From a virus (taxonomy: Duplodnaviria; Caudoviricetes), in the IMG/VR virus record IMGVR_UViG_3300031577_000188, positions 1-40,875 of that record: a stretch of 40,875 nt of DNA. One strand, written 5' to 3'. The position numbers were made by a program, and so were the translations under genes. Below are positions 3,139 through 20,980 of the stretch, in pieces. The notes under the pieces are model-generated. The model worked only from the letters and a program-made list of their open reading frames with translations, made no database searches and had not been told where the DNA came from. The stretch's first letter is position 1. Each line of letters begins with the position of its first letter.

Positions 3139-3894
3139 TTATAATCTTTTCATGCATCCAAGTACCTTAAATACTCTTAGGATGATTTTTATTGGTATAT
3201 CTTGTGGTTTATATTCGGGAGCTTTGTTTGTTGGTATCAGTCGAAAATATCCCTCTTTTTCGGATGCTGTAATTCGTTTCACTGTGCGGTGTTCTTTGGT
3301 CACTATGCCATAGATTTCGCCAAATGGTAGAAACTCCTGCCAGTCTACTACTTCCTTGAGAGCGATAATATCCCCGTGTGTTATTTCGGGTTCCATTGAA
3401 TGGCCCGTAATATTACACCAACAATCAGCCTCATTGTATTTTTTGAAATCAATGAGATATTCGGGTACTCTTGTTTGGTCGTTCAATATTAAGTCAAAAC
3501 CGGCAATGAAGTCTACATTATAATAAGGTACACCTATTCTGTAATTAACGAGAGGTTCTCTTACTGTTGTACATGCTTCCTCATTAGTGTATTCGAATAC
3601 TTCTTTTTTTTCCTGTATTTTCTCATTGACGGCGATACTAGAATTATCGTTCAGCATCTCACCTTCTCCTGTAAGAAGCCAAGTGGGATTGATTTTAGGT
3701 AGTTTGGCAAGTATTTTATCAAGAACGCTTCTTCCTACGCCTCTCTTTCCGCTTACCCAGCCGCTAGTAGTGGCCGTTTTTTCACCCATAAACTCAGAAA
3801 AGGATAAATTGCTATCATTGAAGAGATGTTTTCTTATCTCTCTAATCCTTTCAGATATTCCAGCATTTTCATTTTTGCTTATAATTTGCGCCAT
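3139..3894 (-). CDS. CI/LexA-like phage repressor (HTH + S24 peptidase)
   Basis: N-terminal HTH ending INPTWLLTGEGEM; S24 motifs GHSMEP and TVKR. ATG at 3894 preferred over TTG at 3900. Confidence 0.92.
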   Translation of the reverse strand: MAQIISKNENAGISERIREIRKHLFNDSNLSFSEFMGEKTATTSGWVSGKRGVGRSVLDKILAKLPKINPTWLLTGEGEMLNDNSSIAVNEKIQEKKEVFEYTNEEACTTVREPLVNYRIGVPYYNVDFIAGFDLILNDQTRVPEYLIDFKKYNEADCWCNITGHSMEPEITHGDIIALKEVVDWQEFLPFGEIYGIVTKEHRTVKRITASEKEGYFRLIPTNKAPEYKPQDIPIKIILRVFKVLGCMKRL

Positions 3895-3949
3895 TTGCAA
3901 GAAATAGTGTTAATTAAAGTTATCGATAAGCATAAATGCGAATAATATA

Positions 3950-3980
3950 TTTGCATTATTAACAAAACTGCTTATCTTTG
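3950..3980 (+). promoter_or_regulatory. Rightward early promoter (Bacteroidetes sigma-A type)
   Basis: TTTG (3950-3953), 19 nt spacer, TATCTTTG (3973-3980). Confidence 0.75.
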
Positions 3981-3995
3981 CATCATTCAATCACA

Positions 3996-4026
3996 CAAAT
4001 ATACAATGATTGATTGAATAAGCAAA
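3996..4026 (-). promoter_or_regulatory. Leftward repressor promoter
   Basis: Minus strand TTTG (4026-4023), 19 nt spacer, TATATTTG (4003-3996). Confidence 0.7.
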
Positions 4027-4054
4027 GAAAAAACAATACCTAATAAGGATTAAG

Positions 4055-4360
4055 ATGAAAAATAAGAAATACAATTTGTCCCAAATCATGAGAACAGCTC
4101 ATAGAAATTACAAAAGAGCTAATGGTGAAAAAACTTTTTCAGAATGTCTCGTGAACTCATGGAAATTAGCAAAACTTCAGGTAGCAATGAGCGGCGTTAA
4201 TGAAAATGCAAAGAAAGCGATGGAGAGAAGAAATGAAGCCATCCGTAATTTGCCAAAAGCTACTCCAAGCAAAGCATACAATGATCTTAATATTCCCGAA
4301 TCTGCATATTACAATCCTAATAGCACTGGCCTGCACGGTGCACACTACGTCGGAGACTGA
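4055..4360 (+). CDS. First early gene, hypothetical phage protein
   Basis: 101 aa ORF after the rightward promoter; basic N-terminus YNLSQIMRTAH...FSECL..SWK; no obvious Cro HTH. Confidence 0.75.
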   Translation: MKNKKYNLSQIMRTAHRNYKRANGEKTFSECLVNSWKLAKLQVAMSGVNENAKKAMERRNEAIRNLPKATPSKAYNDLNIPESAYYNPNSTGLHGAHYVGD

Positions 4361-4363
4361 CGG

Positions 4364-4850
4364 ATACAAATATTCCTGTATGGTCTTAGAACCTACCTTT
4401 TGATAGGGTACAGAGAGCAAAATGCGCATTGGCTTAGTTTTCGGTGCAATCCCTTTGAGAATGAGCCTTCCGGCAACGGAGAATCTGAAAGAGGATACGA
4501 GGTAAATTGAACCTTAATCAATCGCTTGGCAGCGTTAAGTCACCCAATACAATGAGGTTTTAATCTGCATTTACCCGCAAAGGGATATTGGGAGCAATGA
4601 GAGTTTGACTCATAAAACAAACAGGGGTCGTTTCCTCCCCGCAATGAAGGATTCCCTGAAAGGCTTGGAACTGGCAACAGAAGCAGACTTGAGTAGGGAT
4701 ACGGGTGCAGACCCGGAAAGCAATCGGTTACGTGTAACTGATATAATCTGCCGCAGTTCGTACTGAGAAAGGTACAACGGAACTCCGAAGCATACCCATG
4801 TAAACAGATAGTAGACATGTCCTTGATAGTAGTGGGTTAAAATGAAGCTT
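4364..4850 (+). ncRNA. Candidate large structured ncRNA
   Basis: No credible + strand ORF; many local hairpins (GCAA, UGAAA loops) and nested long-range helices, e.g. 4449-54/4695-700, 4535-41/4686-92, 4543-49/4586-92, 4440-44/4785-89, 4431-35/4845-49. Ends approximate. Confidence 0.65.
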
Positions 4851-4940
4851 AACAACAAGCCCCGAACGGTAGCAACATTCCGTCGTGAAACTGTGGTAGG
4901 TTATCGGGGCACAATTTAATCAATTAATAATATTAGAGTT

Positions 4941-5225
4941 ATGGGAAAAGTGAAAAACGTTCGACAGCTTGTCGAAAAAGCTGTTATGGACTCTATCGAG
5001 TTTTCTACTAGAAACAAAGGCCAAATCTTTGTTCAGTACAGTCCTCATGTGGATGCTGTTCTATTCCATGCGTATAAGAATGGATGGTCTATGGATAATC
5101 CAAATGCTCCAACTGATTTCAATTTTACTATTTATATCAAAGGTAATTTGAAGCCAACGATTCGAGAAGCAAAAGCGGCTTTAAAGTCTGTATATGATTT
5201 TATTAAGGAAGGAGGTGACAAATGA
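4941..5225 (+). CDS. Hypothetical phage protein
   Basis: 94 aa ORF with AT-rich leader; coupled to the next gene by an ATGA overlap. Confidence 0.7.
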   Translation: MGKVKNVRQLVEKAVMDSIEFSTRNKGQIFVQYSPHVDAVLFHAYKNGWSMDNPNAPTDFNFTIYIKGNLKPTIREAKAALKSVYDFIKEGGDK

Positions 5226-5422
5226 ATGAAACAATAGAAAGAAGGGATGTTTCGCCTGTTCTGCGAGAAATGGAAGTAGGCAGTGAAGAGGTATTCCCTA
5301 TTGAGCAACAACAAACGGTAGTCAACACGATTCAGCGTTTGCAGACAGAATTAATCCGTTCAGGTGCAAAGTGGTCACAATGCAAAAAAGGATTTGTTTG
5401 TGTGGCAAAAAGGATAGCATAA
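5222..5422 (+). CDS. Small hypothetical protein, possibly DNA-binding
   Basis: 66 aa ORF, overlap-coupled on both sides; LREMEVGSEEVFP motif. Confidence 0.7.
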   Translation: MNETIERRDVSPVLREMEVGSEEVFPIEQQQTVVNTIQRLQTELIRSGAKWSQCKKGFVCVAKRIA

Positions 5423-5811
5423 TGATGAATGCTTTGTCACCGGCAGAATGGCAGGTTGCAAATGAATATTGCAAGGGACTTACCGATAAGGAGGTGGCCG
5501 ACAATTTATGCAAATCAGTCTGGACCACCAAAACACAGAAACGGACAATATACAGGAAGCTCGGAATATCGAAAGATACCGAGCTTCTTTTGTATATGCT
5601 CTGTGAGAAAATGAAAAAGAATTTCGATCTGAAAGAAATTCGCAAACACGGGCTTGAGCTCTTGTTCAGTGTCTTATTCATTGTGATGCAGGTTACATGC
5701 CATAATGTTGATTTGAGAAGAATGAGAGGCAAAACGAATGCTCGTATAACTGCGAGGGCTAAAATTAGATCGGGAAAAAAGAATGAATTTGATTTAACTA
5801 CACTGATATGA
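5422..5811 (+). CDS. LuxR-type HTH transcriptional regulator
   Basis: LSPAEWQVANEYCKGLTDKEVADNLCKSVWTTKTQKRTIYRKLGI matches the LuxR C-terminal HTH; ATG at 5422 overlaps the upstream TAA. Confidence 0.85.
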   Translation: MMNALSPAEWQVANEYCKGLTDKEVADNLCKSVWTTKTQKRTIYRKLGISKDTELLLYMLCEKMKKNFDLKEIRKHGLELLFSVLFIVMQVTCHNVDLRRMRGKTNARITARAKIRSGKKNEFDLTTLI

Positions 5812-6128
5812 TATACCAAACAAATAATGAACTGAGGACAACGATACTCAATGACGGGACAGTAGAGGCAAAGCTTTGTGAGATACTAACGGTGATGAAT
5901 AACAAAACGTTCGGCCAGCGTGAATCTGCTGATATTGTTGGCGGGCGTGGGCGGCTCTTTAAGTTAGTGGCTGAGGGCAAAATACGTGCGGAGAAGCCTA
6001 CTAACAAGCAAAATGGTAAATGGTTTTGCAATGCTTCCGATGTGCTCCGCTTTGCCAGAAGATCGTATCGTAAACCTCGTAAATTGAAAAGAGATGGGAA
6101 AAGTAATAATAAACGTGCTAGTGCTTAA
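5808..6128 (+). CDS. Excisionase-like/winged HTH DNA-binding protein
   Basis: FGQRESADIVGGRGRLFKLVAEGKIRAEK...KWFCNASDVLRF resembles Xis/HTH_17 patterns. Confidence 0.55.
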   Translation: MIYQTNNELRTTILNDGTVEAKLCEILTVMNNKTFGQRESADIVGGRGRLFKLVAEGKIRAEKPTNKQNGKWFCNASDVLRFARRSYRKPRKLKRDGKSNNKRASA

Positions 6129-6276
6129 TTTGTTGGCATTGCCGTGCTTGGCGATGTTTAACGGAGAGAATCCAATAACGGGAGAATGGAACTGGTATTG
6201 GAATGTGATAGGGCTCATATATTCGGCATGGTTCTATCATCGCATTCTAAAGCCAATATTTAAACCCATGATGTGA
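6094..6276 (+). CDS. Small two-TM membrane protein
   Basis: 60 aa with two hydrophobic segments. Confidence 0.55.
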   Translation: MGKVIINVLVLNLLALPCLAMFNGENPITGEWNWYWNVIGLIYSAWFYHRILKPIFKPMM

Positions 6277-6356
6277 ATCACGGCGAATTGTGTTTTTCAT
6301 AGTATTTGATTTTTTTTAGCTTGAAAGTCCTACGTCAGGCGTGGCGTAGGCAAAAC

Positions 6357-6470
6357 GGAGAAGTGGCGGAATGGCAGACGCTCCACCCTAGTGCGTGGAA
6401 TTGGTTCCGATCGTGCCGGACGTTCACAATTGGTGTGTGACAAATGCAGGTTCGAATCCTGTCTTCTCCA
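6357..6470 (+). tRNA. Aberrant tRNA-like element (Leu-type D arm, 8-nt anticodon loop, greatly expanded variable region)
   Basis: Acceptor GGAGAAG/CTTCTCC+A; D arm GCG-GAATGGCAGA-CGC; stem TCCAC/GTGGA around CCTAGTGC; T arm GCAGG-TTCGAAT-CCTGT. Confidence 0.7.
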
Positions 6471-6600
6471 CAATGCAATATTGCAGATTAGTAAACAATG
6501 CCGCTGTAAAGGACAGCGTTCTCGTGAAAGCCGGGAATTAAGTTTTATAGATAAAGAATACATTTCATTTTAGCGGCCCTGCAGGCGTGCGGGGCAAAAC

Positions 6601-6669
6601 GGGCTATTAGTCAAAGGCAGACGTCGGAGTGTTTTTCCGAAAACAGCGGTTCGATTCCGCTATAGTCCA
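6601..6669 (+). tRNA. Short tRNA-like element (nominal anticodon GTT, non-canonical loop)
   Basis: GGGCTAT/ATAGTCC acceptor; GTC-AAAGGCA-GAC D arm; TCGGA-GTGTTTT-TCCGA anticodon arm; AGCGG-TTCGATT-CCGCT T arm. Confidence 0.65.
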
Positions 6670-6756
6670 CACCTCAGCGGAGGGAGTATTGATACAATTT
6701 TGAACTAGAACTATGATGATTGTAAAGCCTGTGAAGGTGTATAAAATCGACTGTAA

Positions 6757-6796
6757 TCCCGGTGTGGCTTGAATGCCTATCCGGGAACTTTTTTTT
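6757..6796 (+). terminator. Intrinsic terminator-like hairpin before the recombination genes
   Basis: TCCCGG...GGC-TTGAAT-GCC...CCGGGA followed by a T8 run. Confidence 0.6.
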
Positions 6797-6833
6797 GATT
6801 CATTTTATTTATTAACCCACAAAATTATTAATC

Positions 6834-7769
6834 ATGGGACTTATTAAGAAACCGACCGAGCTGATGGTCAAAAGTACAATATCAGCACTTATCTACGGAC
6901 AACCGGGTATTGGTAAAACAACGCTTTCCTTGAGTTCACCGAATCCGGTTTTATTTGATTATGATGGTGGTGTACACCGTGTGAATGCTGCACATCGTAT
7001 GCCAACGGTACAGATCACTTCATGGGATGAAACGAATCAGGTTATTGCCTCGGAGGACATTAAAGAGTATAGCACGATTGTGATTGATACGGCCGGTAAG
7101 ATGCTTGACTTTATGAGTGCGGATATTATTGCTCGTTCAAAGAATAAAACACCGGGCCGAAAGTTGGCATTGAATGAATACGGCGAACGTAAGGCTATGT
7201 TCATCGCATTTCTCAAAACTGTTTCGATGATGGGTAAAAACGTTGTGTTTGTAGCTCATGAACGTGAAGAAAAGAACGGTGAGGAAAAGCAGATCAGGCC
7301 GGAGATTGGCGGTAGCTCTGCCGGTGATTTGATTAAGGAACTCGATCTTGTCGGGTACATGGAAGCTATCGGGAAGGAGAAAACGATTTCTTTCGATCCT
7401 TGTGAAAAGTTCTATGGAAAGAATACCTGTAATCTTCCTTCTGTGATAAAGATTCCGGTTATCATTGATGCAAACGGAAGTATAACCGGCCGTAATACAT
7501 TTATGACCGACATCATTTCAAAATACACTGAATATCAGGCTAGGCAGACGGAGCTTTCAAGTGATTATGAATCTTTGATGGATGTGATCAAGGAGAACAT
7601 AGAGCTTGTAACGGATGAAGTTTCGGCCAATGATGCTCTTACCCGTATTGGCGAATTTCAACACATCTTTGATAGTAAGGTGCAGGCTGGCACACTCTTG
7701 AATGATAAATGTAGAAAGTTAGGATTGAAATACAATAAATTATCAAAGAAGTATGAACGTGCGGCCTGA
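6834..7769 (+). CDS. AAA_24 ATPase (Sak4-like phage recombinase)
   Basis: Walker A YGQPGIGKTT, Walker B TIVIDT, and FVAHE...DLVGYM. Confidence 0.85.
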   Translation: MGLIKKPTELMVKSTISALIYGQPGIGKTTLSLSSPNPVLFDYDGGVHRVNAAHRMPTVQITSWDETNQVIASEDIKEYSTIVIDTAGKMLDFMSADIIARSKNKTPGRKLALNEYGERKAMFIAFLKTVSMMGKNVVFVAHEREEKNGEEKQIRPEIGGSSAGDLIKELDLVGYMEAIGKEKTISFDPCEKFYGKNTCNLPSVIKIPVIIDANGSITGRNTFMTDIISKYTEYQARQTELSSDYESLMDVIKENIELVTDEVSANDALTRIGEFQHIFDSKVQAGTLLNDKCRKLGLKYNKLSKKYERAA

Positions 7770-8565
7770 TTATAAATTCTATCCAAGTCTACTTGACCAA
7801 TACGAGAAGTATTTGAGAGCGGACGAACAGGTGGAAGCATATTGGAACATCGATAATGAAACCGGGGAATATAAAAAGTCCCCGGAAGAAATTGAAGCTG
7901 AACTGAAGCAAAGCTTGTTGGATTCTATCAACCGTGTTCCCTTTGAAAGTGAGGCGGCTGATAAGGGAACAGCTTTCAATGAGATCATTGATTGCTATGT
8001 GCATAGTCGTGGGCATGTGCCTGATGAACGTAATAACTTCACCATTAAAGGTGATGAAGAAAGGAACATTATCATGGTTGAGTTCCCGAATAGGCGCTTC
8101 ATGTTTGACAGGCAGTGGTGCATTGAACAAGCGAGCTACTTTGAAAGTGCCGTTTCTCAATTGTTCGTCTCCGCAACTCTTCCCACACAATTTGGTGATG
8201 TTGAACTCTATGGGTTTATTGATGAACTCATTCGTGATACGGTGTACGATATCAAAACAACATCAAAGTATGAGTTTGGCAAGTACGAACATGGCTGGCA
8301 ACGCCATGTGTATCCGTATTGTTTGATTGCATCCGGCCAGATGGAGAGTGTGAAAGCTTTTGAGTTTACCGCTTATGCTTTGAAAGGTGGTACCAGTAGA
8401 ACACCGCTTGTAAGTGGCACACAGTATCCGGAGTATTACACTTACAATCACAAGCAGAGTACTCAAATGCTGATAAACCATTGTGAGGCATTCATTCAGT
8501 TTTTGGAAGCGAACAGAGAATTGATAACTGATAAAAAAGTGTTTGGAGGGCAAAACAATGAGTAA
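7753..8565 (+). CDS. PD-(D/E)XK exonuclease-like protein
   Basis: AADKGTAFNE, LYGFIDEL, YDIKTT and WQRHVY; adjacent to the Sak4-like gene. Confidence 0.75.
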   Translation: MNVRPDYKFYPSLLDQYEKYLRADEQVEAYWNIDNETGEYKKSPEEIEAELKQSLLDSINRVPFESEAADKGTAFNEIIDCYVHSRGHVPDERNNFTIKGDEERNIIMVEFPNRRFMFDRQWCIEQASYFESAVSQLFVSATLPTQFGDVELYGFIDELIRDTVYDIKTTSKYEFGKYEHGWQRHVYPYCLIASGQMESVKAFEFTAYALKGGTSRTPLVSGTQYPEYYTYNHKQSTQMLINHCEAFIQFLEANRELITDKKVFGGQNNE

Positions 8566-8860
8566 TATTTCGGATATAATGAGTGTCAATGTTAACAACC
8601 TGCGAGAGAGGCAATATTCTGCTTTGAAATCTTATGTATTAGAAACATTGAACAGAGTGGCCAAGGCAATAGAAGAAGATCGGTTAAGCGATATTGAAAG
8701 CGAATTAAGCTTTAGTCCCGCAGGTGATGGATATGGATGCAACAACCATTTCATTGACTTTAATTGGGAAAAAGGGGATGAAACAATTGACATGGCCGAG
8801 GTCACTAATATGCTTATGGAACTCTCCGGACATGAGTTTAAAATGATTGGAGTATTATGA
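8558..8860 (+). CDS. Hypothetical phage protein
   Basis: ORF overlap-coupled with both neighbours; ATG at 8558. Confidence 0.65.
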   Translation: MSNISDIMSVNVNNLRERQYSALKSYVLETLNRVAKAIEEDRLSDIESELSFSPAGDGYGCNNHFIDFNWEKGDETIDMAEVTNMLMELSGHEFKMIGVL

Positions 8861-9282
8861 GTCAGGAAGCAGTTCTAACGAAGAAAGACGGACAGGTAGA
8901 GTTATCAAAGCCATTAGAGTTTATGTATTCCCAGTTGAGGAATGGACGTTATCGGTTGAAGATTGAACGTTATGTTGAACAACGTACTATTCCACAAAAT
9001 GCGTTGATGTGGTTATGGTTTACATGTATTGAAAGAGAGACAGGGTCGGATAAACAAGATGTGCATGATCGCTACTGCATGCTCTTTCTTCGTAGAACTG
9101 TTTTAATTAATGGCGTAGAGGAGACCGTTTGCAGGGGTACTTCCCAATTAAACACGTTGCAAATGACTGACTTTATGAATAAGGTTAAGGCGGATGCGGC
9201 GACTGAAATGGGAATAATTCTCCCTCTTCCGGAAGATCGATACTATGCCGAGTTTATTAACGAGTATAAAGATAGAAGATAA
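8857..9282 (+). CDS. NinB/Orf-like recombination accessory protein
   Basis: RTIPQNALMWLW and TSQLNTLQMTDFM...GIILP. Confidence 0.7.
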   Translation: MSQEAVLTKKDGQVELSKPLEFMYSQLRNGRYRLKIERYVEQRTIPQNALMWLWFTCIERETGSDKQDVHDRYCMLFLRRTVLINGVEETVCRGTSQLNTLQMTDFMNKVKADAATEMGIILPLPEDRYYAEFINEYKDRR

Positions 9283-9284
9283 TT

Positions 9285-9911
9285 ATGCAAATTACAAAAG
9301 CAAAAATTACAAAGGACAATACGATTGTAGCAACGTATACCAATGAGAATGGTGACACGGTTACCATTGAGGGAAAGAACATTGTTCATAAGGATTTGAC
9401 TGCCGCTTTTAGCGAGCTTATTCCTCACTTGACAATCCTGTGCGAACAGAAAGAGGCGGACGGGAAACTTCTCGGTAATCTTCCCGATGAGATATATTCC
9501 AAATTGGAGGTTGCCGGCTATTCAATAGGTGGTAGTGATGACAGTGAGGGAGTTACTCTGACGGGAAAACGTTTCCTTATGAGCAAGAAGGTGCTTAATC
9601 TGAATGCGCCGTTTACGATGTTCAACAATGAGAATGAAGAGTACGAGTATGCGTTGGATCTTTATGAGTGCGTGCAGAAATGCAGCTATGAGGTAGAACA
9701 GTACTTGTTTGAAAAGAAATGGGCTATTGTGCAACAAGAGTTACCGTTTAAAGATGGTGAGGCAAGCGATATGCCGTTTGAGGATATTAATCCCGATGCG
9801 GTTGCGGAAGCGGTAGAGGGCTTTGAGAATGCGGGTGTAACGTTTATTATTAACGGTGAGGAAGCGAAGCCGAAAAAGTCCCGTAAATCCAAGAAAGAAT
9901 TAGTAGCATAG
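9285..9911 (+). CDS. Hypothetical phage protein
   Basis: 208 aa ORF in operon; acidic C-terminal half. Confidence 0.75.
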   Translation: MQITKAKITKDNTIVATYTNENGDTVTIEGKNIVHKDLTAAFSELIPHLTILCEQKEADGKLLGNLPDEIYSKLEVAGYSIGGSDDSEGVTLTGKRFLMSKKVLNLNAPFTMFNNENEEYEYALDLYECVQKCSYEVEQYLFEKKWAIVQQELPFKDGEASDMPFEDINPDAVAEAVEGFENAGVTFIINGEEAKPKKSRKSKKELVA

Positions 9912-9915
9912 TTAT

Positions 9916-11586
9916 ATGGCAGCACCTTTACTTATTACACGCACACCGGATTGCTATAAGATTCAGTTTGTGTTTCACCCATTGTTGAATGAGTGTGTTA
10001 AGCGGATACCGTCGAGGGAGTGGGTGCATGATGAAAAGTATTGGAGGGTTAGCATTGGTGATTATGATTATGTGAACAAGTTTTCTCAATGGGCCGTAAA
10101 TCGGGGACTATGCTCACGGTTGCAATACCGGGAACAGAAGGACATCGATAAGGATTATTCACTTCCTGATATGCCGAAGCTAAATGTTCCTCATGGCTTG
10201 AAACTAGAGCCGTATGATTATCAGAAAGAGGGCATCGCTTACGCATTGCAGCATAAGCGGTGTATATTCGGAGATCAGCCCGGTTTAGGGAAAACACTTC
10301 AGGCAATAGGCACGGTTACGATATCAAAGGCGTATCCGTGCCTTGTTGTTTGTCCTGCATCGTTGAAGATAAACTGGCAACGTGAGTTTCACAAGTTTGC
10401 CGGAAAGAATGCCCTTATACTTGATGATAGGAGTAAGGCATCATGGCAACGCTTCTATGAAACAAAGTGCTGTGATATCTTCATAGTGAATTATGAATCA
10501 TTGAAAAAATTCTTTGTTCGTGGCATTAAAGAACAGGCCCGTTTCACAATGAAGTCGATAGATTTTGATCCACGTATTGACTTGTTCAAATCGATCATCA
10601 TCGATGAATCACACAAATGTAAATCAACGAAGACGCAACAGGCAAAGTTTGTTGAGGGTATCGCCAAAGGCAAAGAGTATGTGTGTTTGCTTACCGGTAC
10701 GCCGGTTGTGAATGACAATACCGACCTTATACAACAGCTTAAGATCATGGACCGGTTAGAGGACTTTGGCGGGTACAAATACTTCTTTGAAAAGTATTGC
10801 GATGGCCCGAAGAGGTCAAGCAATTTAAAGGAACTCAATTGGCGGTTATGGCATACGTGTTTCTTCCGAAGGGAGAAAAGCAAGGTACTTACTCAATTGC
10901 CCGATAAGACACGCCAGTACTTGACGCTCGATATCACTACCCGGAATGAATACCAAAAGGCCGAGGCGGATTTTATCAGTTATCTGCGAAATTACAAGAA
11001 TGCGGATGATGAAAAGATAGCCAGGGCCGTACGTGGTGAGGTGATGGTTAAGATGGGTATTCTCAAAGCGATATCGGCACGTGGGAAGATCAAGGCGGCT
11101 GCCGACTTTATTCATGATGTTATTGATGGAGGTGAGAAACTGATTGTGTTTGCCTACCTGAAAGAGGTTGTGATGGAGCTGAAGAAAATGTTTCCGGATG
11201 CGGTGACTGTTACCGGTGATGACAGCCCGGTACAGAAACAACATGCCGTCGATGCCTTTCAAGAAGATCCTAATTGCAAGCTTATTATTCTGAACTACAA
11301 ATCAGGTGGTACGGGGCTTACGCTAACGGCCAGCTCGCGTGTGGCATTCGTTGAGTTCCCGTGGACATTCTCCGATTGCGAACAGGCGGAGGATAGGGCA
11401 CACCGTAACGGACAGAAAAACAGTGTGAACTGCTATTACTTTCTCGGGAAAGATACGATTGATGAATACATGTACAAGGTCATTCAGATAAAGAAGGACA
11501 TCGCAAACGGTGTTACGGGTACGGATGATCAGGTGCAGGAGGATATTATTCAAATGACAATGGATTTATTTAAAACAAAATTATGA
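9916..11586 (+). CDS. SNF2-family (SF2) helicase
   Basis: GDQPGLGKT, IIDESH, LTGTP, GTGLTLT and QAEDRAHRNGQ. Confidence 0.93.
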   Translation: MAAPLLITRTPDCYKIQFVFHPLLNECVKRIPSREWVHDEKYWRVSIGDYDYVNKFSQWAVNRGLCSRLQYREQKDIDKDYSLPDMPKLNVPHGLKLEPYDYQKEGIAYALQHKRCIFGDQPGLGKTLQAIGTVTISKAYPCLVVCPASLKINWQREFHKFAGKNALILDDRSKASWQRFYETKCCDIFIVNYESLKKFFVRGIKEQARFTMKSIDFDPRIDLFKSIIIDESHKCKSTKTQQAKFVEGIAKGKEYVCLLTGTPVVNDNTDLIQQLKIMDRLEDFGGYKYFFEKYCDGPKRSSNLKELNWRLWHTCFFRREKSKVLTQLPDKTRQYLTLDITTRNEYQKAEADFISYLRNYKNADDEKIARAVRGEVMVKMGILKAISARGKIKAAADFIHDVIDGGEKLIVFAYLKEVVMELKKMFPDAVTVTGDDSPVQKQHAVDAFQEDPNCKLIILNYKSGGTGLTLTASSRVAFVEFPWTFSDCEQAEDRAHRNGQKNSVNCYYFLGKDTIDEYMYKVIQIKKDIANGVTGTDDQVQEDIIQMTMDLFKTKL

Positions 11587-11768
11587 GTAGTGAAAATACA
11601 GAGAAAAAATCTCTTGTCTCCTTTACTATTGTAGAGGGCGAAAAGGGAAGAATCAGAATAGTGAATCCGAATGTGAGTGGTGAAGGCATCAGCATTGTTT
11701 TATTCGGTTCACTGATTAAGCATTTGGCGGAGATTGAAAGTTGGTATAACCAGACTACGCAGAAATGA
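11583..11768 (+). CDS. Small hypothetical protein
   Basis: 61 aa ORF with ATGA overlaps on both sides. Confidence 0.6.
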   Translation: MSSENTEKKSLVSFTIVEGEKGRIRIVNPNVSGEGISIVLFGSLIKHLAEIESWYNQTTQK

Positions 11769-12115
11769 GACCACAAAGTGAAAGCCAGATACAACACGGA
11801 TGCATCGCTTGGTTCAGAACTCAATATCCTTTTTTGTCACGCTTACTGTTTGCCGTTCCTAACGGTGGTAAGCGTGATAGGAGGACGGGAGCACAGATGA
11901 AGTACGAGGGGTGCATGCGTGGCGTGGCAGACTTAATATTGTTGGTACCGAAAAAAGGTTATGCATCCCTGTGTATTGAGATGAAAACCCCGAAAGGAGT
12001 ACAGAGTGATGAACAAAGGATATGGCAGCGGTCTGCTGAAAAGGCGAATAACAAGTATGTTGTCTGCCGTTCTTTGGAAGAATTTATGAATGAAGTTAAT
12101 TCCTATCTAAGATGA
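11765..12115 (+). CDS. VRR-NUC domain nuclease
   Basis: ESQIQ, AVPNGG, GVADL, IEMKTPKG and QSDEQ. Confidence 0.9.
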   Translation: MRPQSESQIQHGCIAWFRTQYPFLSRLLFAVPNGGKRDRRTGAQMKYEGCMRGVADLILLVPKKGYASLCIEMKTPKGVQSDEQRIWQRSAEKANNKYVVCRSLEEFMNEVNSYLR

Positions 12116-12816
12116 ACTATATAGAATTAATTAATCAGTTTTGGTCAATCAGAAGATATAAGCCGATGACAGCACATGAAGCAGACTTCTATTTCTTTCT
12201 ACTAAAGGAATGCAACATGCGGAACTGGCTTTGCCCCTTTGACTTGCCAACACGTTTAATCCAAGCCGAATTAGGTTATTCAAATAAAGTGATAATTGAT
12301 TTGCGCAACCGATTAAAGCAAAAAGGGCTGATTGATTTTATTGAAGGAAATAGAAGGGAAAGGGCGGCTGCTTATATTTTGGTTTCTGTGAGTAACCAAA
12401 ACAGTAATCAAACTAGTAACCAAATTGGCAACCAAAACGGTAATCAAATTGGTAACCCTTTAAATACTAAACAAAAACAGAAACAAAAACAAGAGAATAA
12501 CTCTAACGAGTTATTTGCGCAAAGTGAAATTCAACCACCTAAAATCAAACGCCCTAAAAAAGAATTTATACCACCGACACTCGAGGAAGTTAAAGCCTAT
12601 TTTTCCGGTAAGCTTCCCGAGTGGGAACAGCAGGCCGAAATATTCTTCAACCATTTTGAAAGTTTGGGCTGGAAAGCGGGTAATGGCGTGAAAATCCAAC
12701 GCTGGGATAGTAGGGCTAATCTGTGGATAATTGAAAAATCAACGAAGAATGGAAACAAGAAGCAGACGAATGATGACCTTGGAACAGATGTTATCATACG
12801 GTCGACCACGGCCTGA
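12112..12816 (+). CDS. Phage replication initiator (wHTH N-terminus)
   Basis: MNYIELINQFW...RNRLKQKGLIDF; low-complexity linker with iteron-like repeats; C-terminal FIPPTLEEV...FFNHFESLGWK; precedes a loader ATPase. Confidence 0.75.
   Translation: MNYIELINQFWSIRRYKPMTAHEADFYFFLLKECNMRNWLCPFDLPTRLIQAELGYSNKVIIDLRNRLKQKGLIDFIEGNRRERAAAYILVSVSNQNSNQTSNQIGNQNGNQIGNPLNTKQKQKQKQENNSNELFAQSEIQPPKIKRPKKEFIPPTLEEVKAYFSGKLPEWEQQAEIFFNHFESLGWKAGNGVKIQRWDSRANLWIIEKSTKNGNKKQTNDDLGTDVIIRSTTA
12391..12457 (+). repeat. Tandem 12-bp repeats (about 5.5 copies), putative origin iterons
   Basis: agtaaccaaaac agtaatcaaact agtaaccaaatt ggcaaccaaaac ggtaatcaaatt ggtaacc, followed by an A-rich tract. Confidence 0.7.
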
Positions 12817-13414
12817 GCCGTTTACGTCGGAGGAGAGACCCCGGTTATTTGTTGAGTGTTGCAAATTTATTTGTCCTCAATTTAGCATTGATGACAGGAA
12901 CAAGGCTCTGATGAATGAAGTCTATCGTTACTTTGAGGGCACTTCTGCAAAGTATGACCACGACAAAGGCCTGTGGCTGTGGGGTACGATCGGCACGGGT
13001 AAATCTACCATCATTCAAATCATGAACTATTACAGCAAGTTTTCCAAAGGTCTTGACCGTGGGGATTACCCTATCGGAGGATTTCGCATTGAATCGACCT
13101 CTACTGTGGCGAATAAGTTTGCAATGAAGGGACAGGATGCCATCGAATTGTACACGTACAACAATGGCCGGCCCCGCACGATTGCTTTCGATGAACTGGG
13201 TAGGGAACCTTTGCCGGCAAAGTATTTCGGGACGGAACTCAATGTGATGCAGTACGTGTTTCAATCCCGCTATGAATTGCGCAAAGAGTGTTTAACACAT
13301 GTGACAACGAACCTGAGTCTTATCGAGGTGCAGAAGAAGTACGGCTCATACATAGCCGATAGAATCAATGAAATGTTTAACGTAATCGAATTGACAGGGA
13401 GGAGTAGGAGATGA
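12749..13414 (+). CDS. DnaC/IstB-like ATPase (helicase loader)
   Basis: GLWLWGTIGTGKS, FDELGRE, THVTTNL and IADRINEMF...GRSRR. Confidence 0.85.
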   Translation: METRSRRMMTLEQMLSYGRPRPEPFTSEERPRLFVECCKFICPQFSIDDRNKALMNEVYRYFEGTSAKYDHDKGLWLWGTIGTGKSTIIQIMNYYSKFSKGLDRGDYPIGGFRIESTSTVANKFAMKGQDAIELYTYNNGRPRTIAFDELGREPLPAKYFGTELNVMQYVFQSRYELRKECLTHVTTNLSLIEVQKKYGSYIADRINEMFNVIELTGRSRR

Positions 13415-14850: not shown

Positions 14851-15645
14851 ATGAATTTGAATCAAGAAAACAGAGATAAAAATCAACCAAGGCCTCCTGT
14901 GCTTTATAAATACATTGATATTGATGGTGCAATAATGATGCTTTATTATAGCGATTTGCAGTTCACTAATGCAACTAAGCTCAATGACCCTTTTGATTGT
15001 CATCCAAGCTTAATAGACTTCTCTAAAGTTCCTCCTGAAAAATCTAAAGGATGGGATAAAAAGCTTATTGAAGGGTTAGTGTCACACCGACATCAAAGAT
15101 ATCGAGAAAAAATTTGGGTATGCTGCCTGTCGAAAGCCTTTGATTCGTTATTAATGTGGAGTTATTACAACAATCATAAAGGGGTATGCATTGGTTTGAA
15201 TATAGAGAAAGTTGTAGAATATCTCAATTCGTCACTTGGGATGATGGTTAGCAATTTCGGCCATGAGGTTCAATATTGTGACATTATTGAGAAACCTGAT
15301 TATTTCCAATCTCAGACTGATCTATTTTATTATCAAATGTGCACAAAAGGAAAAGCTTGGGAGCATGAACAGGAGGTTCGCATGTTTATTTCTGATCCTT
15401 CACCTTGGTGTATGAGCTTGTTGCCTGGCCAAAATGATAAATATGGAGCAATAGATGGAAAAGAAATAAGAGTTTTTCCTAAGATAGGAGGAGAATGTTT
15501 TGAATCCATATATCTTGGTGCTAATATAAAAGAAAAGGACAAAGGTAAAATAATCAAGTTGGCTAGAAAGTTAAATCCTGATATTAAAATATATCAAATG
15601 GAAATTAACTCAAATGCTTTTAGATTAGATGCGAGCCAATTATGA
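14851..15645 (+). CDS. DUF2971 family protein
   Basis: LYKY, LNDPFDC, CCLS, LLMWSYY, HKGVCIG and K..AWEHEQEVR. Confidence 0.85.
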   Translation: MNLNQENRDKNQPRPPVLYKYIDIDGAIMMLYYSDLQFTNATKLNDPFDCHPSLIDFSKVPPEKSKGWDKKLIEGLVSHRHQRYREKIWVCCLSKAFDSLLMWSYYNNHKGVCIGLNIEKVVEYLNSSLGMMVSNFGHEVQYCDIIEKPDYFQSQTDLFYYQMCTKGKAWEHEQEVRMFISDPSPWCMSLLPGQNDKYGAIDGKEIRVFPKIGGECFESIYLGANIKEKDKGKIIKLARKLNPDIKIYQMEINSNAFRLDASQL

Positions 15646-15751
15646 CGACAACTATTCTAAGGTTACTTAACAAGGTTTCTTTTTTGTAGTTAATCTAAAC
15701 ATTCAATAAAAGACAAAAAGGAGAAATTATGATAAAAAGGAAAAACTGTGA

Positions 15752-15919
15752 AGAGTTCCTAATGACTTTTACCCGCTTCCTAGTGAAACGTTCCGGTTTT
15801 ATTATACTTCTGCATTGACTGACCAGCAGACCATTGACGTGTATGTGGAAAATCGTTTTCAGCAGTTGGTTCAACTGACTTTCTCCTTCAATAATGATAG
15901 CAGTAAGGAAGAGGAATAA
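15752..15919 (+). pseudogene. 3' remnant resembling DUF3872/TraQ of Bacteroides conjugative transposons
   Basis: Frame reads PNDFYPLPSETFRFYYTSALTDQQTIDVYVENRFQQLVQLTFSFNNDSSKEEE*, with an in-frame stop just upstream and no start. Similarity is recalled, not searched. Confidence 0.6.
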
Positions 15920-16013
15920 ACCTTTTTGTATGAATGTGTTAAGAAGCATTGGAGTTTTTTTCTCCAATGCTTCTTTTTGATTAACTTTGCGGAAAATTAA
16001 AATATTTCATACC

Positions 16014-17063
16014 ATGAGAAGTGAAGAGTATAAATATGTAACAACGTGTTTTTTTGAACATGAAATATATACGTTTCCAATGACGGTTGGAGATTTATTG
16101 CAAATACAATATGTTGCTCCAAGAGGGGTCAGTACAGAACAAGGTGCTGTCCAAAGAATATTAAATAAAAAACGGATTACCCAAATAAAAGATTTTGTAT
16201 TGGCTGGAAATACATTCGTAAATACTTTTATTTTAAATTGGACTGATTCGGAGAACCTTCCAAAAATAAAAAAAGAGACATTGAATATTCCATTGCAGGG
16301 AAGAAGAGCTCAAATTTTAGATGGACAGCATAGAATTGCTGGATTACAAGAGGCAGTCAATGTCAAATCTGAAATTGGAAAAACCGAAGTTTTAGTTTCG
16401 CTTTGCATTGGGCTTAAAACCCAAGATGCCGCTAAAATATTCCTAAATATCAATAGCGAGCAGAAGCCTGTTCCCAAAAGTCTTATATATGATTTGTTTG
16501 GAGAAGCAATTGAGGATAGGGAACATGCAATAAATAGAGTAACAGATATTATTAATTTCCTAAATACAAATGAAGAATCTCCATTCTTCCAATTTGTAAA
16601 ATATCCGGGGTCTCCAAGAACATCAGGACTTATTGATTTAGCTATTATGGTGAACGCTATGAAATCGTATTTTGAAAAAGATGGTGCATTTGATAGACTT
16701 AAATTATCTGAAATAGAGACACAGCAGAAAATAATTTTGAATTTCTATTCAGCCATAAAAGAGACATACAACAAAACGAATAAAATTTGGGATAAGAAAA
16801 TAGAAAACCCTTTTATTAAAGCTGCGGGGTTCAGTGGAGCTTTTGATTTTTTGATTGACACTCTAATTCCAAGATGTCAAGTAGATAAGAGTTTTTCAAT
16901 TGAACACATGGTTTCCCTGATGAAATTGGATAGTGATGATTTAATTACTGTAACTGACATTAAATCGTTAGATGGAAAAACTGCCAAAAAGAAAATTAAG
17001 TTATTCTTCAATGATAATTTTATACAGGATGTTCCATCATCAAGCGATGAATATGAGTTTTAA
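16014..17063 (+). CDS. DGQHR-domain (DndB/ParB-like) protein
   Basis: VQRILNKKRI, ILDGQHRIAGL and FLNINSEQKPVPKSL; TAACTTTG promoter element at 15982-15989. Confidence 0.88.
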   Translation: MRSEEYKYVTTCFFEHEIYTFPMTVGDLLQIQYVAPRGVSTEQGAVQRILNKKRITQIKDFVLAGNTFVNTFILNWTDSENLPKIKKETLNIPLQGRRAQILDGQHRIAGLQEAVNVKSEIGKTEVLVSLCIGLKTQDAAKIFLNINSEQKPVPKSLIYDLFGEAIEDREHAINRVTDIINFLNTNEESPFFQFVKYPGSPRTSGLIDLAIMVNAMKSYFEKDGAFDRLKLSEIETQQKIILNFYSAIKETYNKTNKIWDKKIENPFIKAAGFSGAFDFLIDTLIPRCQVDKSFSIEHMVSLMKLDSDDLITVTDIKSLDGKTAKKKIKLFFNDNFIQDVPSSSDEYEF

Positions 17064-17874
17064 AAGGAATGATGTGCAAGAATTTATTGAGACTGAAGTT
17101 GGTTGTTTTGATATTGAACAATGGTCTTCATATAAATCAGCATTAGAACAATGGGAGATAACAACTTCAAACATAGTGCGGGTAAAAGAGTGTGTTAAAA
17201 GCGACATTAACTCTTATTTTTTTAAGGCATTCCAGTCTTTCGCACAAGCTCTGCATGAAATAGATAGCAAAAAATATGCTTGGTCTATCGTGAAGTTATA
17301 TTACGCCATTTTTTACTTATTAAGGTGCGAAATATTACTTTCAGATTATATTATTATCAGGTGTAAAACATTATATTATGCTAAAATTAATATCGGAGAA
17401 AAGCCAACGACATTTAATCCAAATAAATTTAAAGGAGACCATCAATTAACCATTGCTTTAGAGGAAAAATTATATAATTCATCCGAATTAACAGACCCCA
17501 TTTTAGGCAATAAAATCAATGGAGAAAATGCCTATATGTGGTTTATGAGTAACAGAGATAGGGTTAATTATCAAATGAAAGATTTTTCAGACCCAATTTG
17601 CGATGTATTTTTAAGTCATGTAATTTCATATTTTGACAATAAGGAACTTATGAATCTGTTTCAATTTTATAATACTAAAACAGATTATTCTGTCTGCTTT
17701 GATACAGACCACACCCTATTGTCGATACCATACAAGAAACTAATATCAGTTTATAAAAGGATAAATACCACAATGATTATTACACCTGAATCAAAACAAA
17801 AACTTATTGAGACACGCAAATTGTTATTTGAGTTAGGATTAAATAAAACAGACATTAAAACTTTGCTTCAATAA
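17047..17874 (+). CDS. HEPN-like protein coupled to the DGQHR gene
   Basis: AWSIVKLYYAIFYLLRCEIL...GDHQ...RDRVNY follows the HEPN YYAxF...H...RxxxxY layout; start overlaps the DGQHR gene end. Confidence 0.65.
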   Translation: MNMSFKRNDVQEFIETEVGCFDIEQWSSYKSALEQWEITTSNIVRVKECVKSDINSYFFKAFQSFAQALHEIDSKKYAWSIVKLYYAIFYLLRCEILLSDYIIIRCKTLYYAKINIGEKPTTFNPNKFKGDHQLTIALEEKLYNSSELTDPILGNKINGENAYMWFMSNRDRVNYQMKDFSDPICDVFLSHVISYFDNKELMNLFQFYNTKTDYSVCFDTDHTLLSIPYKKLISVYKRINTTMIITPESKQKLIETRKLLFELGLNKTDIKTLLQ

Positions 17875-17884
17875 CGGTTTCTTT

Positions 17885-17921
17885 GCTACTTTCTTTCCCG
17901 CATATCACGAAAGAAAGTAGC
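17885..17921. repeat. 13-bp perfect inverted repeat (terminator or REP-like)
   Basis: GCTACTTTCTTTC-N11-GAAAGAAAGTAGC between convergent genes. Confidence 0.7.
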
Positions 17922-18035
17922 CAGATGTGAATTCCGCACGATATAGATTCTGGTTCTGCAAAATTATCAATATCACATTCCAATATAACTTTTCATATAA
18001 GGTTGCTTTAGATTGCCAAAGTAATTGCCTCGCTC

Positions 18036-18638
18036 TCATTTACTGAGTAGTCTTTTATATTTTTCGTATGTATTATAATAAAAAAAGTATGAGATTACTA
18101 TAATAAAAAAACAAGCAAGAAATTCGACTAATGAGCAAGGGCTTTTACTAAAACAAATAAGCCCTTCTTTAACACAAATCCCTGCAAATACTATCAGTTG
18201 CAGAATTGAGATGATCCAGAAAAATATGGCATAAAAATTAGGTAAGTAGGACCAGAATCCTTTTCCTGAAGGATCATATAAATCTCCGAACACATCATCG
18301 TATTCTCCACCAAGTTCTTTTTTTCGTATTCTCATGTTCAGGGTTTGGTCTCTTCTAAATGCATATCCTAGATGAAGAATGATAAGGTTTAATAATAGAA
18401 GTACTAGTAATACAACTAAAGTTACAGTAATTAGTATCGAATTAGATACATACATACCTTGTATGTATGTTTGCGTATAAGGAATGCTGTCTGTTGTATG
18501 TACATATGTGTATCCAAACCCTCCGAATAAGACTAAGAGAGCAACAAGTAATTGTATAAATAGAGCTTGATGGTGATTTTGGTTTTCAGCGAATTGTTCA
18601 TGAATTGAATTAAGTATATTATTTCTGATCCTTCTCAT
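18036..18638 (-). CDS. Hypothetical membrane protein (about 4 TM)
   Basis: Four hydrophobic segments in 200 aa; AT-rich accessory gene. Confidence 0.75.
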   Translation of the reverse strand: MRRIRNNILNSIHEQFAENQNHHQALFIQLLVALLVLFGGFGYTYVHTTDSIPYTQTYIQGMYVSNSILITVTLVVLLVLLLLNLIILHLGYAFRRDQTLNMRIRKKELGGEYDDVFGDLYDPSGKGFWSYLPNFYAIFFWIISILQLIVFAGICVKEGLICFSKSPCSLVEFLACFFIIVISYFFYYNTYEKYKRLLSK

Positions 18639-18752
18639 AATTTTTTGAATGTAAATACGTAATGTTGTTCTGTAATTGTATCTGACTAAAGTCTATGAAA
18701 AATAGCGAATTAATAAAAGTCTTTTGTTGGCAACGTGAATTACTCTTTGATT

Positions 18753-19310
18753 CTATTGAGCATGCTTCCCTATTAAAGGTTGCAGCTTCTTTGCAAAATA
18801 GACCTCCAAAGATGGCATAAGCTGATACATGTCTTCGTTTATTTCAAGAGCGTGGAGTTTCAGTTTTAGAGATAGCGGCTTTGCCCAGTGAGACAACTGT
18901 AAGCCATGATCAGTGCAATCTTTATGATAACCTAAGTGTTGAATAACCCTACCCCAAAAACAAGCTTTGACTTTACCTACATATAACGTTCTTGTTGAAT
19001 TATGATCGTAATAGTTTAAAGCGGGTGCCGGTCTTCCAAAGGTGTCTTCTTTATATTTCTCAAATGCTGCTAATATTATTGCATTATCTATATCAGAAAC
19101 TATTTCATACCAATAAATTGTTTGGCGAGTTATAGCTTCAAGTTCTTCAAATAACTTTTCATATTTAGGCGCCTTTCTAATATCAGTCGTTAAATAGTTT
19201 TCTAATTCTGAACAGTCAATATCAAAACAATACTCTTTAATTCTATTTTGGCTAATATTTTTTAGACCTTTAATGGTCTCTTCTGCGAATGATTCTAATA
19301 GTGAATTCAT
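18753..19310 (-). CDS. GIY-YIG-like nuclease
   Basis: TIYWY...TLYVGKV...GRVIQHLG...LE...LQPLIG matches the GIY-YIG motif order. Confidence 0.65.
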   Translation of the reverse strand: MNSLLESFAEETIKGLKNISQNRIKEYCFDIDCSELENYLTTDIRKAPKYEKLFEELEAITRQTIYWYEIVSDIDNAIILAAFEKYKEDTFGRPAPALNYYDHNSTRTLYVGKVKACFWGRVIQHLGYHKDCTDHGLQLSHWAKPLSLKLKLHALEINEDMYQLMPSLEVYFAKKLQPLIGKHAQ

Positions 19311-19380
19311 ATTATCTGATTTTAAGATTTACAAATGAAGTAATTTCGTTTTTCAAAAGCAAATTAGATTGCTCATTTTA

Positions 19381-19458
19381 TTTTTTAGTAGCACGTCATG
19401 CGTCCATGTGAGCTACTACCGAGTAGTCTTTTAGGGGATTATTCGGTATCTTTATTTT
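19381..19458 (+). repeat. Direct repeat copy A (degenerate late-promoter region)
   Basis: 78 bp with 8 mismatches to 22054-22131 by manual alignment. Confidence 0.9.
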
Positions 19459-19465
19459 ATGTGAA

Positions 19466-19537
19466 GAAACTTATGATCGGGTCGTGCGGTTAGTGAAGAA
19501 GAATATTGCTGTTATCCGGCAGAGGATGACGATATAG
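19466..19537 (+). pseudogene. Short 3' remnant resembling the PcfJ-like protein C-terminus
   Basis: Frame reads ETYDRVVRLVKKNIAVIRQRMTI*. Similarity is recalled, not searched. Confidence 0.4.
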
Positions 19538-19601
19538 AATGACTTATTATAAATAAAAAATAATATCTTTGAGCAAATATCTAGTAAAAAAGTGTAATGC
19601 A

Positions 19602-20891: not shown

Positions 20892-20980
20892 TTTTATTTG
20901 AATTTCATTTATTATTCCTTCGTAATATAAATGAAATTATTAAAATGCATTATGATAATTGATTTGTCATAGGATAGTTC

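What the first reader, a model, noticed from the sequence alone, without database searches (positions are those of the whole stretch)
4364..4850. Large, intricately folded ncRNA candidate in the early operon
Seen: the 580 nt gap has no credible sense ORF and is dense in helices. Local hairpins: TTCCG-GCAA-CGGAG (4468), CTG-GCAA-CAG (4671), CGGGT-GCAG-ACCCG (4702), ATCGGTTA-CGTG-TAACTGAT (4723), GTACT-GAGAAA-GGTAC (4760) and CC-TGAAA-GG (4655). Nested long-range pairs: 4431-35/4845-49, 4440-44/4785-89, 4449-54/4695-700, 4535-41/4686-92, 4543-49/4586-92. Possible alternative or pseudoknot pairing: 4463-69/4660-66. Established: phage-associated large ncRNAs of unknown function exist (GOLLD, ROOL), and a Bacteroidales-2 motif is described. 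Inference: an early-expressed multi-domain RNA, possibly acting with the basic 101 aa protein just upstream.
Basis: partly seen in the sequence, partly recalled or inferred. Interest (0 to 1): 0.8.

Follow-up and report, generated by a model that had tools for sequence, protein, structure and literature searches.

The report
Swappable RNA modules in Bacteroides phages
The gene-free stretch after the first early gene of this Bacteroides phage is a chain of five separately conserved modules, each predicted to fold as RNA, which related phages carry in different combinations; it lies where sister phages have a near-copy of the host's ribosomal-RNA "keep transcribing" signal, so it likely helps RNA polymerase read on through the early genes.

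Summary
The 580-nt gap (4361-4940) after gene 1 of this temperate Bacteroides phage is conserved structured RNA, but not one ROOL-like fold. It is a chain of modules: M1 (4376-4413), M7 pseudoknot (4423-4542), M8 (4543-4592), core (4600-4838) and M4 (4859-4910). M1, M7, M8 and the core covary; M4 is near-invariant. Modules occur in nine orders in related elements. Rfam gives no hit. In sister phages the slot after M1 holds a near-copy of the Bacteroides rRNA-leader boxA (13-16 of 17 nt). BoxA and core never co-occur (73 versus 122 redundant loci). One consensus promoter precedes the operon, and a terminator-like hairpin precedes the recombination genes. Best reading (0.4, untested): a cis-acting antitermination device replacing boxA. 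Main rival (0.3): stable RNAs cut from the transcript; one of four metatranscriptomes holds the core as a very deep contig. Gene 1 is not an obligate partner. This scan reported the same modular RNA on other DNA (e1-5325642). Bacteroidales-2 could not be excluded.

The parts
3950..3980 (+). Predicted early rightward promoter (Bacteroides -33/-7 consensus, recalled); start near 3988
   Evidence: Only + strand consensus match between 3950 and 13088; the same -7 pattern precedes the rRNA-leader boxA
3996..4026 (-). Opposing predicted promoter for the CI-like repressor (3139-3900, minus strand)
4055..4360 (+). Gene 1, 101 aa: helical hairpin plus long helix, conserved C-terminal Y(V/C)GD; function unknown; not an obligate partner of the RNA
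   Evidence: 47 homologues; fold pLDDT 73, no PDB match; no Pfam hit; weak atlas lead Phage_Gp111, score 0.85; present without modules in 12 loci
4376..4413 (+). Module M1: three-way junction; directly precedes boxA in sister phages (boxB position)
   Evidence: 7 of 12 pairs with both-side changes in 21 variants; 7 compensatory events versus 0.09 null
4423..4542 (+). Module M7: predicted H-type pseudoknot (4431-42 with 4457-67; 4449-56 with 4488-96) plus three hairpins; widespread on its own in Bacteroides elements
   Evidence: 11 of 23 pairs with both-side changes in 28 variants, 4 of 8 in the second pseudoknot helix; the first is invariant or G-U only; 13 events versus 0.5; 66 loci
4543..4592 (+).
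   Evidence: 8 of 14 RNAalifold pairs with both-side changes in 8 variants
4600..4838 (+). Core module: hairpins 4603-22, 4624-40 and 4671-80; long helix 4683-86/4748-51; T-loop-like hairpins at 4702 and 4760 (motif name recalled); stem 4795-97/4834-36; possible pseudoknot 4654-66/4691-98. Starts at the boxA position
   Evidence: 8 of 38 pairs (core plus M4) with both-side changes in 20 variants; 11 events versus 0.4; pseudoknot 100% paired with one-sided changes only; a relative's 154-nt core contig in run X9
4718..4747 (+).
   Evidence: present in 3 of 20 variants; z -2.6
4859..4910 (+). Module M4: 7-bp base stem with a variable top, 15-35 nt before the next start codon; follows the core or the alternative module M9, never boxA
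   Evidence: (6 of 7 pairs invariant)
6753..6797 (+). Terminator-like hairpin with U8 run before the Sak4-like recombination gene (6834), no consensus promoter after it; candidate target of antitermination
   Evidence: z -4.1; missed by the stock scanner

Best explanation
The gap is a chain of five separately conserved modules, each predicted to fold as RNA, that likely acts in cis on the transcribing RNA polymerase so that it reads on through downstream terminators of the early operon, with the core and M4 likely standing in for the boxA signal that sister phages carry at the same place. Shown: conservation, covariation, module shuffling, position 360-760 nt after the predicted early promoter in most phage loci, and mutual exclusion with boxA. 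Inferred: that the sister phages' motif is a working boxA; that the hairpin at 6753-97 terminates; that the modules touch polymerase or Nus factors; and which module does so. A phage protein partner is not required by the data.
For: (1) Slot. After M1, phages carry either a boxA-like 17-mer or the core (or M9) plus M4, never both: 73 loci M1+boxA without core, 122 core loci without boxA. (2) That 17-mer matches the motif just after the promoter in 4 of 4 rRNA leaders read from Bacteroides sp. KFT8 at 13-16 of 17 nt in six phage loci; the window's gap reaches only 10 of 17. Hairpin-then-boxA is the rrn order (PMC8632103, passages). (3) The core begins at the same distance from M1 as boxA and shares its first and last letters without the central U run. 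(4) One consensus promoter serves 3988-13088. A hairpin plus U run precedes the Sak4-like gene in the window and in the BS-TP3-type and M9-type phages, with no promoter after it. (5) M7 elsewhere lies in sense orientation between genes of same-strand strings in all 15 M7 loci mapped, as described for EAR (PMC8191782, passage).
Against: No functional test. The exclusion rests on about half a dozen lineages per side; counts are redundant and the two sets were found by different searches. A single insertion slot for cargo gives the same pattern. BoxA in sisters is itself followed by long structured modules and tRNAs, so it may only let polymerase through cargo RNA. The terminator link is not clean: L270 has boxA plus a terminator and no promoter, while L201-type boxA phages have a near-consensus promoter there. 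M7 also sits among late genes, twice 200 nt before a new predicted promoter (L433, L440). The array is far larger than the 65-nt put. A very deep core-only contig in one run fits a released stable RNA.
Confidence: 0.4

Rival explanations
1. The modules are cargo: stable non-coding RNAs cut out of the early transcript, like the nearby tRNAs, that act in trans, for example as decoys for host defence or RNA-binding proteins, or in immunity (P4 CI and P1 C4 are recalled analogues).
For: In run X9 a 154-nt contig covering only the core of a relative (L123:2433-2586, about window 4607-4791) has depth 1913 against 12-42 for the other listed contigs; the only contig of X3 is also the core. tRNAs and tRNA-like genes share these operons. 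M7 occurs in strings of small genes with DUF4120 and LPD29. Free shuffling suits cargo.
Against: The tool states that contigs cannot show level, strand or ends. X1 and X6 show no enrichment, no DNA run was laid, and the window's own sequence was not tested. No internal consensus promoter. No antisense target in the phage beyond scattered 11-13-mers. A cis element can also leave a stable fragment.
Confidence: 0.3
2. The modules are processing or stability signals (nuclease sites, exonuclease-blocking pseudoknots or an unrecognised ribozyme) that cut the polycistronic RNA and set the levels of neighbouring genes.
For: Modules start within about 10-25 nt of stop codons and M4 ends 15-35 nt before a start codon. 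A truncated M7 with only the pseudoknot is kept in some phages (L427, L428, L463). M7 also occurs among late genes.
Against: Does not explain the exchange with boxA. No Rfam ribozyme model matches at E 10. The M4 base stem is only 7 bp.
Confidence: 0.17
3. One large ornate RNA of the ROOL/GOLLD kind, folded by the reader's long-range pairs and acting with gene 1.
For: Size 540-580 nt, prophage setting, tRNAs nearby; many tetraloop and T-loop-like hairpins.
Against: M7 and the core co-occur only in the window's lineage; nine module orders exist. The M7 strands pair internally with covariation. No Rfam hit. Gene 1 occurs without modules.
Confidence: 0.08
4. Not functional RNA: chance pairing, DNA-level signals or recombination linkers.
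For: Whole-gap folding energy is ordinary (z -0.3 to -0.7). Structures were partly drawn from the alignments on which they were scored.
Against: 31 compensatory events on trees of three modules against about 1 under the null. Slid-partner controls drop pairing from 97-99% to 28-57%. G-U-compatible changes favour RNA of the + strand.
Confidence: 0.05

Closest known systems
rrn-type antitermination site (boxB-boxA-boxC; NusA/B/E/G, SuhB, S4) and lambda nutR
   Same: Position after the first early gene. Sister phages have hairpin M1 followed by a 13-16/17 match to the Bacteroides rRNA-leader motif.
   Different: This phage has no boxA (best 10/17); a 240-nt covarying core and M4 fill the slot. 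Gene 1 has no arginine-rich motif and is not obligate.
HK022 put RNA
   Same: Folded RNA in an early phage transcript, no boxA, no phage protein required by the data.
   Different: put is a 65-nt double hairpin (PMC8632103, passage). This is 540 nt in five swappable modules with a pseudoknot; no sequence comparison with put was made.
EAR RNA and conAn2 (Gram-positive processive antitermination RNAs)
   Same: Large structured RNA between genes near the start of, or inside, a long operon. conAn pairs it with a small protein (PMC8191782, one passage).
   Different: No Rfam match; different phylum; protein partner not obligate here; modular shuffling is not described in the passage read.
ROOL and GOLLD large ornate RNAs
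   Same: Size, prophage location, tRNAs nearby (PMC5737381, passages).
   Different: Those are single conserved folds (ROOL: six multistem junctions, three pseudoknots). Here modules occur separately and no model matches.
Bacteroidales-2 motif
   Same: Host order; reported as a large motif (recalled).
   Different: Could not be compared: not at the three Rfam accessions tried, supplement unreadable, review not held, no relevant paper found.

Membership tests
ROOL / GOLLD | Match to the Rfam covariance models | tested here: not met
   No hit in the gap at gathering score or E 10
ROOL / GOLLD | One conserved multi-junction fold spanning the whole RNA | tested here: not met
   Modules occur apart and in nine orders
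ROOL / GOLLD | Prophage context near tRNAs | tested here: met
   Provirus record; tRNAs at 6357 and 6601; not specific
Bacteroidales-2 motif | Match to its consensus | not testable with these tools
   Presence in Rfam 15 not confirmed; alignment not readable
rrn/nut-type Nus antitermination site | boxA sequence | tested here: not met
   Best 10/17 in the gap, 11/17 in 3988-6834; 13-16/17 in six sister loci
rrn/nut-type Nus antitermination site | Hairpin element next to the boxA position | tested here: met
   M1, covarying
rrn/nut-type Nus antitermination site | Binding of NusB/NusE and read-through | not testable with these tools
   Needs experiment
lambda N/nut | Cognate arginine-rich phage protein always encoded with the site | tested here: not met
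   Gene 1 has no Arg-rich run, folds as helices without PDB match, and occurs without modules
HK022 put | Located in the early transcript downstream of the lytic promoter | tested here: met
   First module 360-760 nt after the predicted promoter in most phage loci
HK022 put | About 65-nt double hairpin | tested here: not met
   Five modules over 540 nt
HK022 put | Factor-independent read-through in cis | not testable with these tools
   Needs in vitro transcription
conAn system | Homology of the small protein to ConAn1 | not tested
   ConAn1 was not fetched; gene 1 has no Pfam family
Group I/II introns, known ribozymes and riboswitches | Match to Rfam models | tested here: not met
   also none in 16 related loci apart from tRNA, BTnc049 and one weak tmRNA hit elsewhere

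The most novel reading that the evidence does not exclude
Bacteroides mobile elements share an interchangeable toolkit of RNA antiterminators. Nus-dependent boxA has been replaced in some lineages by protein-free folded RNAs (core, M9, M7) that bind Bacteroidota RNA polymerase directly and can be stacked or dropped into any long operon. This would be a new, modular class beside put and EAR, with a visible boxA-to-fold evolutionary step.
Probability: 0.2. Interest if true: 0.85.

Novelty: new variant of a known kind. Interest (0 to 1): 0.62.

Why it matters
How temperate phages of Bacteroides get through their early terminators was not addressed in the papers my searches returned (listings only). 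A 2021 paper named only put and EAR as RNA antiterminators besides conAn2 (PMC8191782, passage). Here, natural variants swap a recognisable boxA for uncatalogued folds at one slot, which gives ready-made constructs for a reporter test. Under the rival reading, these are several new abundant phage RNA families. Either way they are four covarying RNA motifs absent from Rfam 15, and possible tools for Bacteroides expression.

Tried and rejected
Single-sequence folding is uninformative. A 14-nt hairpin pattern gave 119 viral loci, none homologous. L304/L322 share only the T-loop-like hairpin used to find them (16 bits, circular) and were rejected as homologues. My early note that M4 is repeated in L001 was wrong: one copy is found. 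My first M1 structure was one column off and failed; it was corrected. The core model found only the B. ihuae copy in 151 family and 151 order genomes, and the M7 model only that copy in 151 order genomes. A DNA search of 401 order genomes also found only that copy. These are samples scored on few candidates, not proof of absence. No plasmid match for M7/M8; no GenBank phage match for M1+boxA. No antisense target. Gene 1: no Pfam, PDB or informative PHROG match. The core pseudoknot has no both-side change and stays a proposal. Expression rests on four runs laid once; no second set and no DNA control were obtained. Ten paper searches found no description of these modules. Short motifs were absent from the readable supplements of PMC10690425 and PMC8040213, but their large files (1 and 2; 7 and 8), probably the alignments, could not be read. 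Some modules may therefore be among those anonymous candidates.

Full report
Setting. The window is a provirus record of a temperate phage. A CI-like repressor (3139-3900, minus strand) faces an early operon that runs through Sak4-like, NinB-like, helicase and DnaC-like genes. Its closest relative is a Bacteroides ihuae prophage (97% over the gap). A Bacteroides-type promoter (consensus recalled) lies at 3950-3980 and is the only + strand match before 13088. Gene 1 (4055-4360) is followed by the gap, 4361-4940.

Observation. Rfam 15 gives no hit in the gap, even at E 10.

Homologues. Phage BS-TP3 has a shorter version lacking about 170 nt. Pattern scans gave the core in 31 of 57 viral loci, with more; 3 of 250 Bacteroides genomes had strong matches. 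The missing piece (M7) occurs independently: 10 of 250 genomes, one of them a CRISPR spacer, and 66 loci after dropping 19 chance matches. Models of the core and of M7 found only the B. ihuae copy in samples of 151 family or order genomes; the M7 model hit 5 of 151 Bacteroides genomes. Locus counts include repeated contigs and near-identical phages.

Structure. Core plus M4: 20 of 25 distinct variants aligned (4 further loci skipped by the script); 99.6% of cells paired, 8 of 38 pairs with both-side changes. M7: 28 of 30 variants; 11 of 23 pairs, including 4 of 8 in the helix 4449-56/4488-96 that crosses the invariant or G-U-only helix 4431-42/4457-67. M1: 21 of 26 variants, the aberrant L370 form among those left out; 7 of 12 pairs (after a mis-registered first try). 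M8: window plus 7 of 10 listed sequences, the other three not being M8; 8 of 14. On trees, compensatory events numbered 11, 13 and 7 against null means of 0.4, 0.5 and 0.09, with 0 of 5000 reaching the observed value. The structures were partly read from these alignments, so these figures overstate significance; R-scape was not available. A second pseudoknot in the core is 100% paired but shows only one-sided changes.

Modularity. Orders seen: M1-M7-(M8)-core-M4 (this phage), M0a-M1-core-M4, M1-core-M4, core-M4, M1-boxA-M5, M1-boxA-M6, M1-boxA, M0a-M7-M1-boxA, M1-M7-M1-M9-M4, M7-M9-M4, and M7 alone. That is eleven rows, nine if the three M1-boxA forms are counted as one. M0a, M5, M6 and M9 are further structured-looking blocks that I located by motif only and did not test for covariation. 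In most phage loci the first module lies 360-760 nt after the predicted early promoter. M7 alone also occurs in strings of small genes (DUF4120, LPD29, peptidase) and among late genes.

The boxA slot. In 73 loci M1 is followed within 60 nt by a motif matching the sequence just after the promoter in the four rRNA leaders read (of five found) in Bacteroides sp. KFT8: 16, 15, 14, 14, 14 and 13 of 17 nt in six loci checked. I call it boxA from its position and recalled consensus; binding is untested. None of these loci has the core, and none of 122 core loci has the motif; the window's best is 10 of 17. The core starts at the same spacing from M1 and resembles boxA without its central U run (by eye). 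The rrn order is boxB then boxA (PMC8632103, passages).

Downstream target. A hairpin with a U8 run at 6753-97 precedes the Sak4-like gene (z -4.1). A related hairpin and U run occur in BS-TP3-type and M9-type phages, with weaker computed energies, and M0a-type core phages have a different terminator-like hairpin and a tRNA there. L201-type boxA phages have a near-consensus promoter at this point, but L270 has boxA, a terminator and no promoter, so the link between core and terminator is not clean.

Expression. Of four RNA runs laid on a relative (L123), X9 has a 154-nt contig covering only the core at depth 1913 against 12-42 for its other listed contigs, and X3's only contig is the core; X1 and X6 are flat. 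Contigs cannot show level, strand or ends, and no DNA control was laid, so this is a lead only. It points towards a released stable RNA.

Gene 1. It has 47 homologues, a helical model and no PDB or Pfam match. It occurs without any of eight module motifs in 12 loci of the L194/L200 type, while modules occur without it (L429, L436, L439). It is not an N-like obligate partner.

Mechanism. I commit to cis-acting antitermination (0.4), because of the exchange with boxA, the position, and the single promoter ahead of a terminator-like hairpin. Cargo RNA acting in trans (0.3) and processing or stability signals (0.17) remain open, and modules may differ in role. No step of the mechanism was tested.

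Literature. Read as passages: PMC5737381, PMC8191782, PMC8632103, PMC4496710 (nothing on put). Supplements searched in part: PMC10690425 and PMC8040213 (large files unreadable). All other papers were seen as search listings only. P4 CI, P1 C4, T-loop, the Bacteroides promoter consensus and Bacteroidales-2 are recalled.

Verdict. The region is real and uncatalogued in Rfam 15: four covarying RNA motifs and one near-invariant stem, shuffled among Bacteroides mobile elements. It is a new variant of a known kind; interest 0.62.

Noticed in passing
L304 and L322, minus strand, about 290 nt before to 200 nt after position 2516: An unrelated lytic-type phage has a roughly 500-nt gene-free, hairpin-rich stretch after a sigma70-like promoter, with no Rfam hit; it is not homologous to the core. 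A separate large ncRNA candidate.
   Followed up: partly
window 6357-6470 and 6601-6670: A tRNA-like gene with about 50 extra nt in the anticodon region (Rfam 40 bits, missed by ARAGORN) beside a tRNA-Asn; similar over-long tRNA-like genes occur in L123, L143, L177, L262 and L270.
   Followed up: no
L201 about 3650-3900 (also L180, L203): After boxA comes a structured-looking block (M5) and then what looks like a tRNA-like sequence interrupted by a second tRNA-like piece; not matched by Rfam at E 0.05.
   Followed up: no
L429 about 1700-1800; L435 about 2700-2800: Alternative module M9, with two tandem copies of a 14-nt motif, fills the core's slot between an M1-like hairpin and M4.
   Followed up: partly
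L430 1500-1537: A CRISPR spacer in a Bacteroides genome matches the middle of M7.
   Followed up: partly
L433 and L440: M7 lies in a late region upstream of a predicted promoter and a likely scaffold gene; the upstream head-morphogenesis gene in L433 matches the Bxa ADP-ribosyltransferase PHROG family.
   Followed up: no
L259 about 3900-4850 (B. ihuae prophage): About 1 kb with opposite-strand ORFs is inserted between M4 and the next early gene, so the position after M4 also accepts protein cargo.
   Followed up: no
window 4310-4360: The C-terminal Y(V/C)GD-stop of gene 1 is kept across otherwise divergent first genes; role unknown.
   Followed up: no
window 14851-21706: Accessory genes between replication and packaging: DUF2971, DndB-like, pentapeptide-repeat and Abi_2 proteins, a possible defence cluster.
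   Followed up: no
L201 133-249, L262 1714-1816, L270 1317-1408 (minus strand): Sub-threshold matches to the Bacteroides sRNA BTnc049 on the repressor side of sister phages.
   Followed up: no
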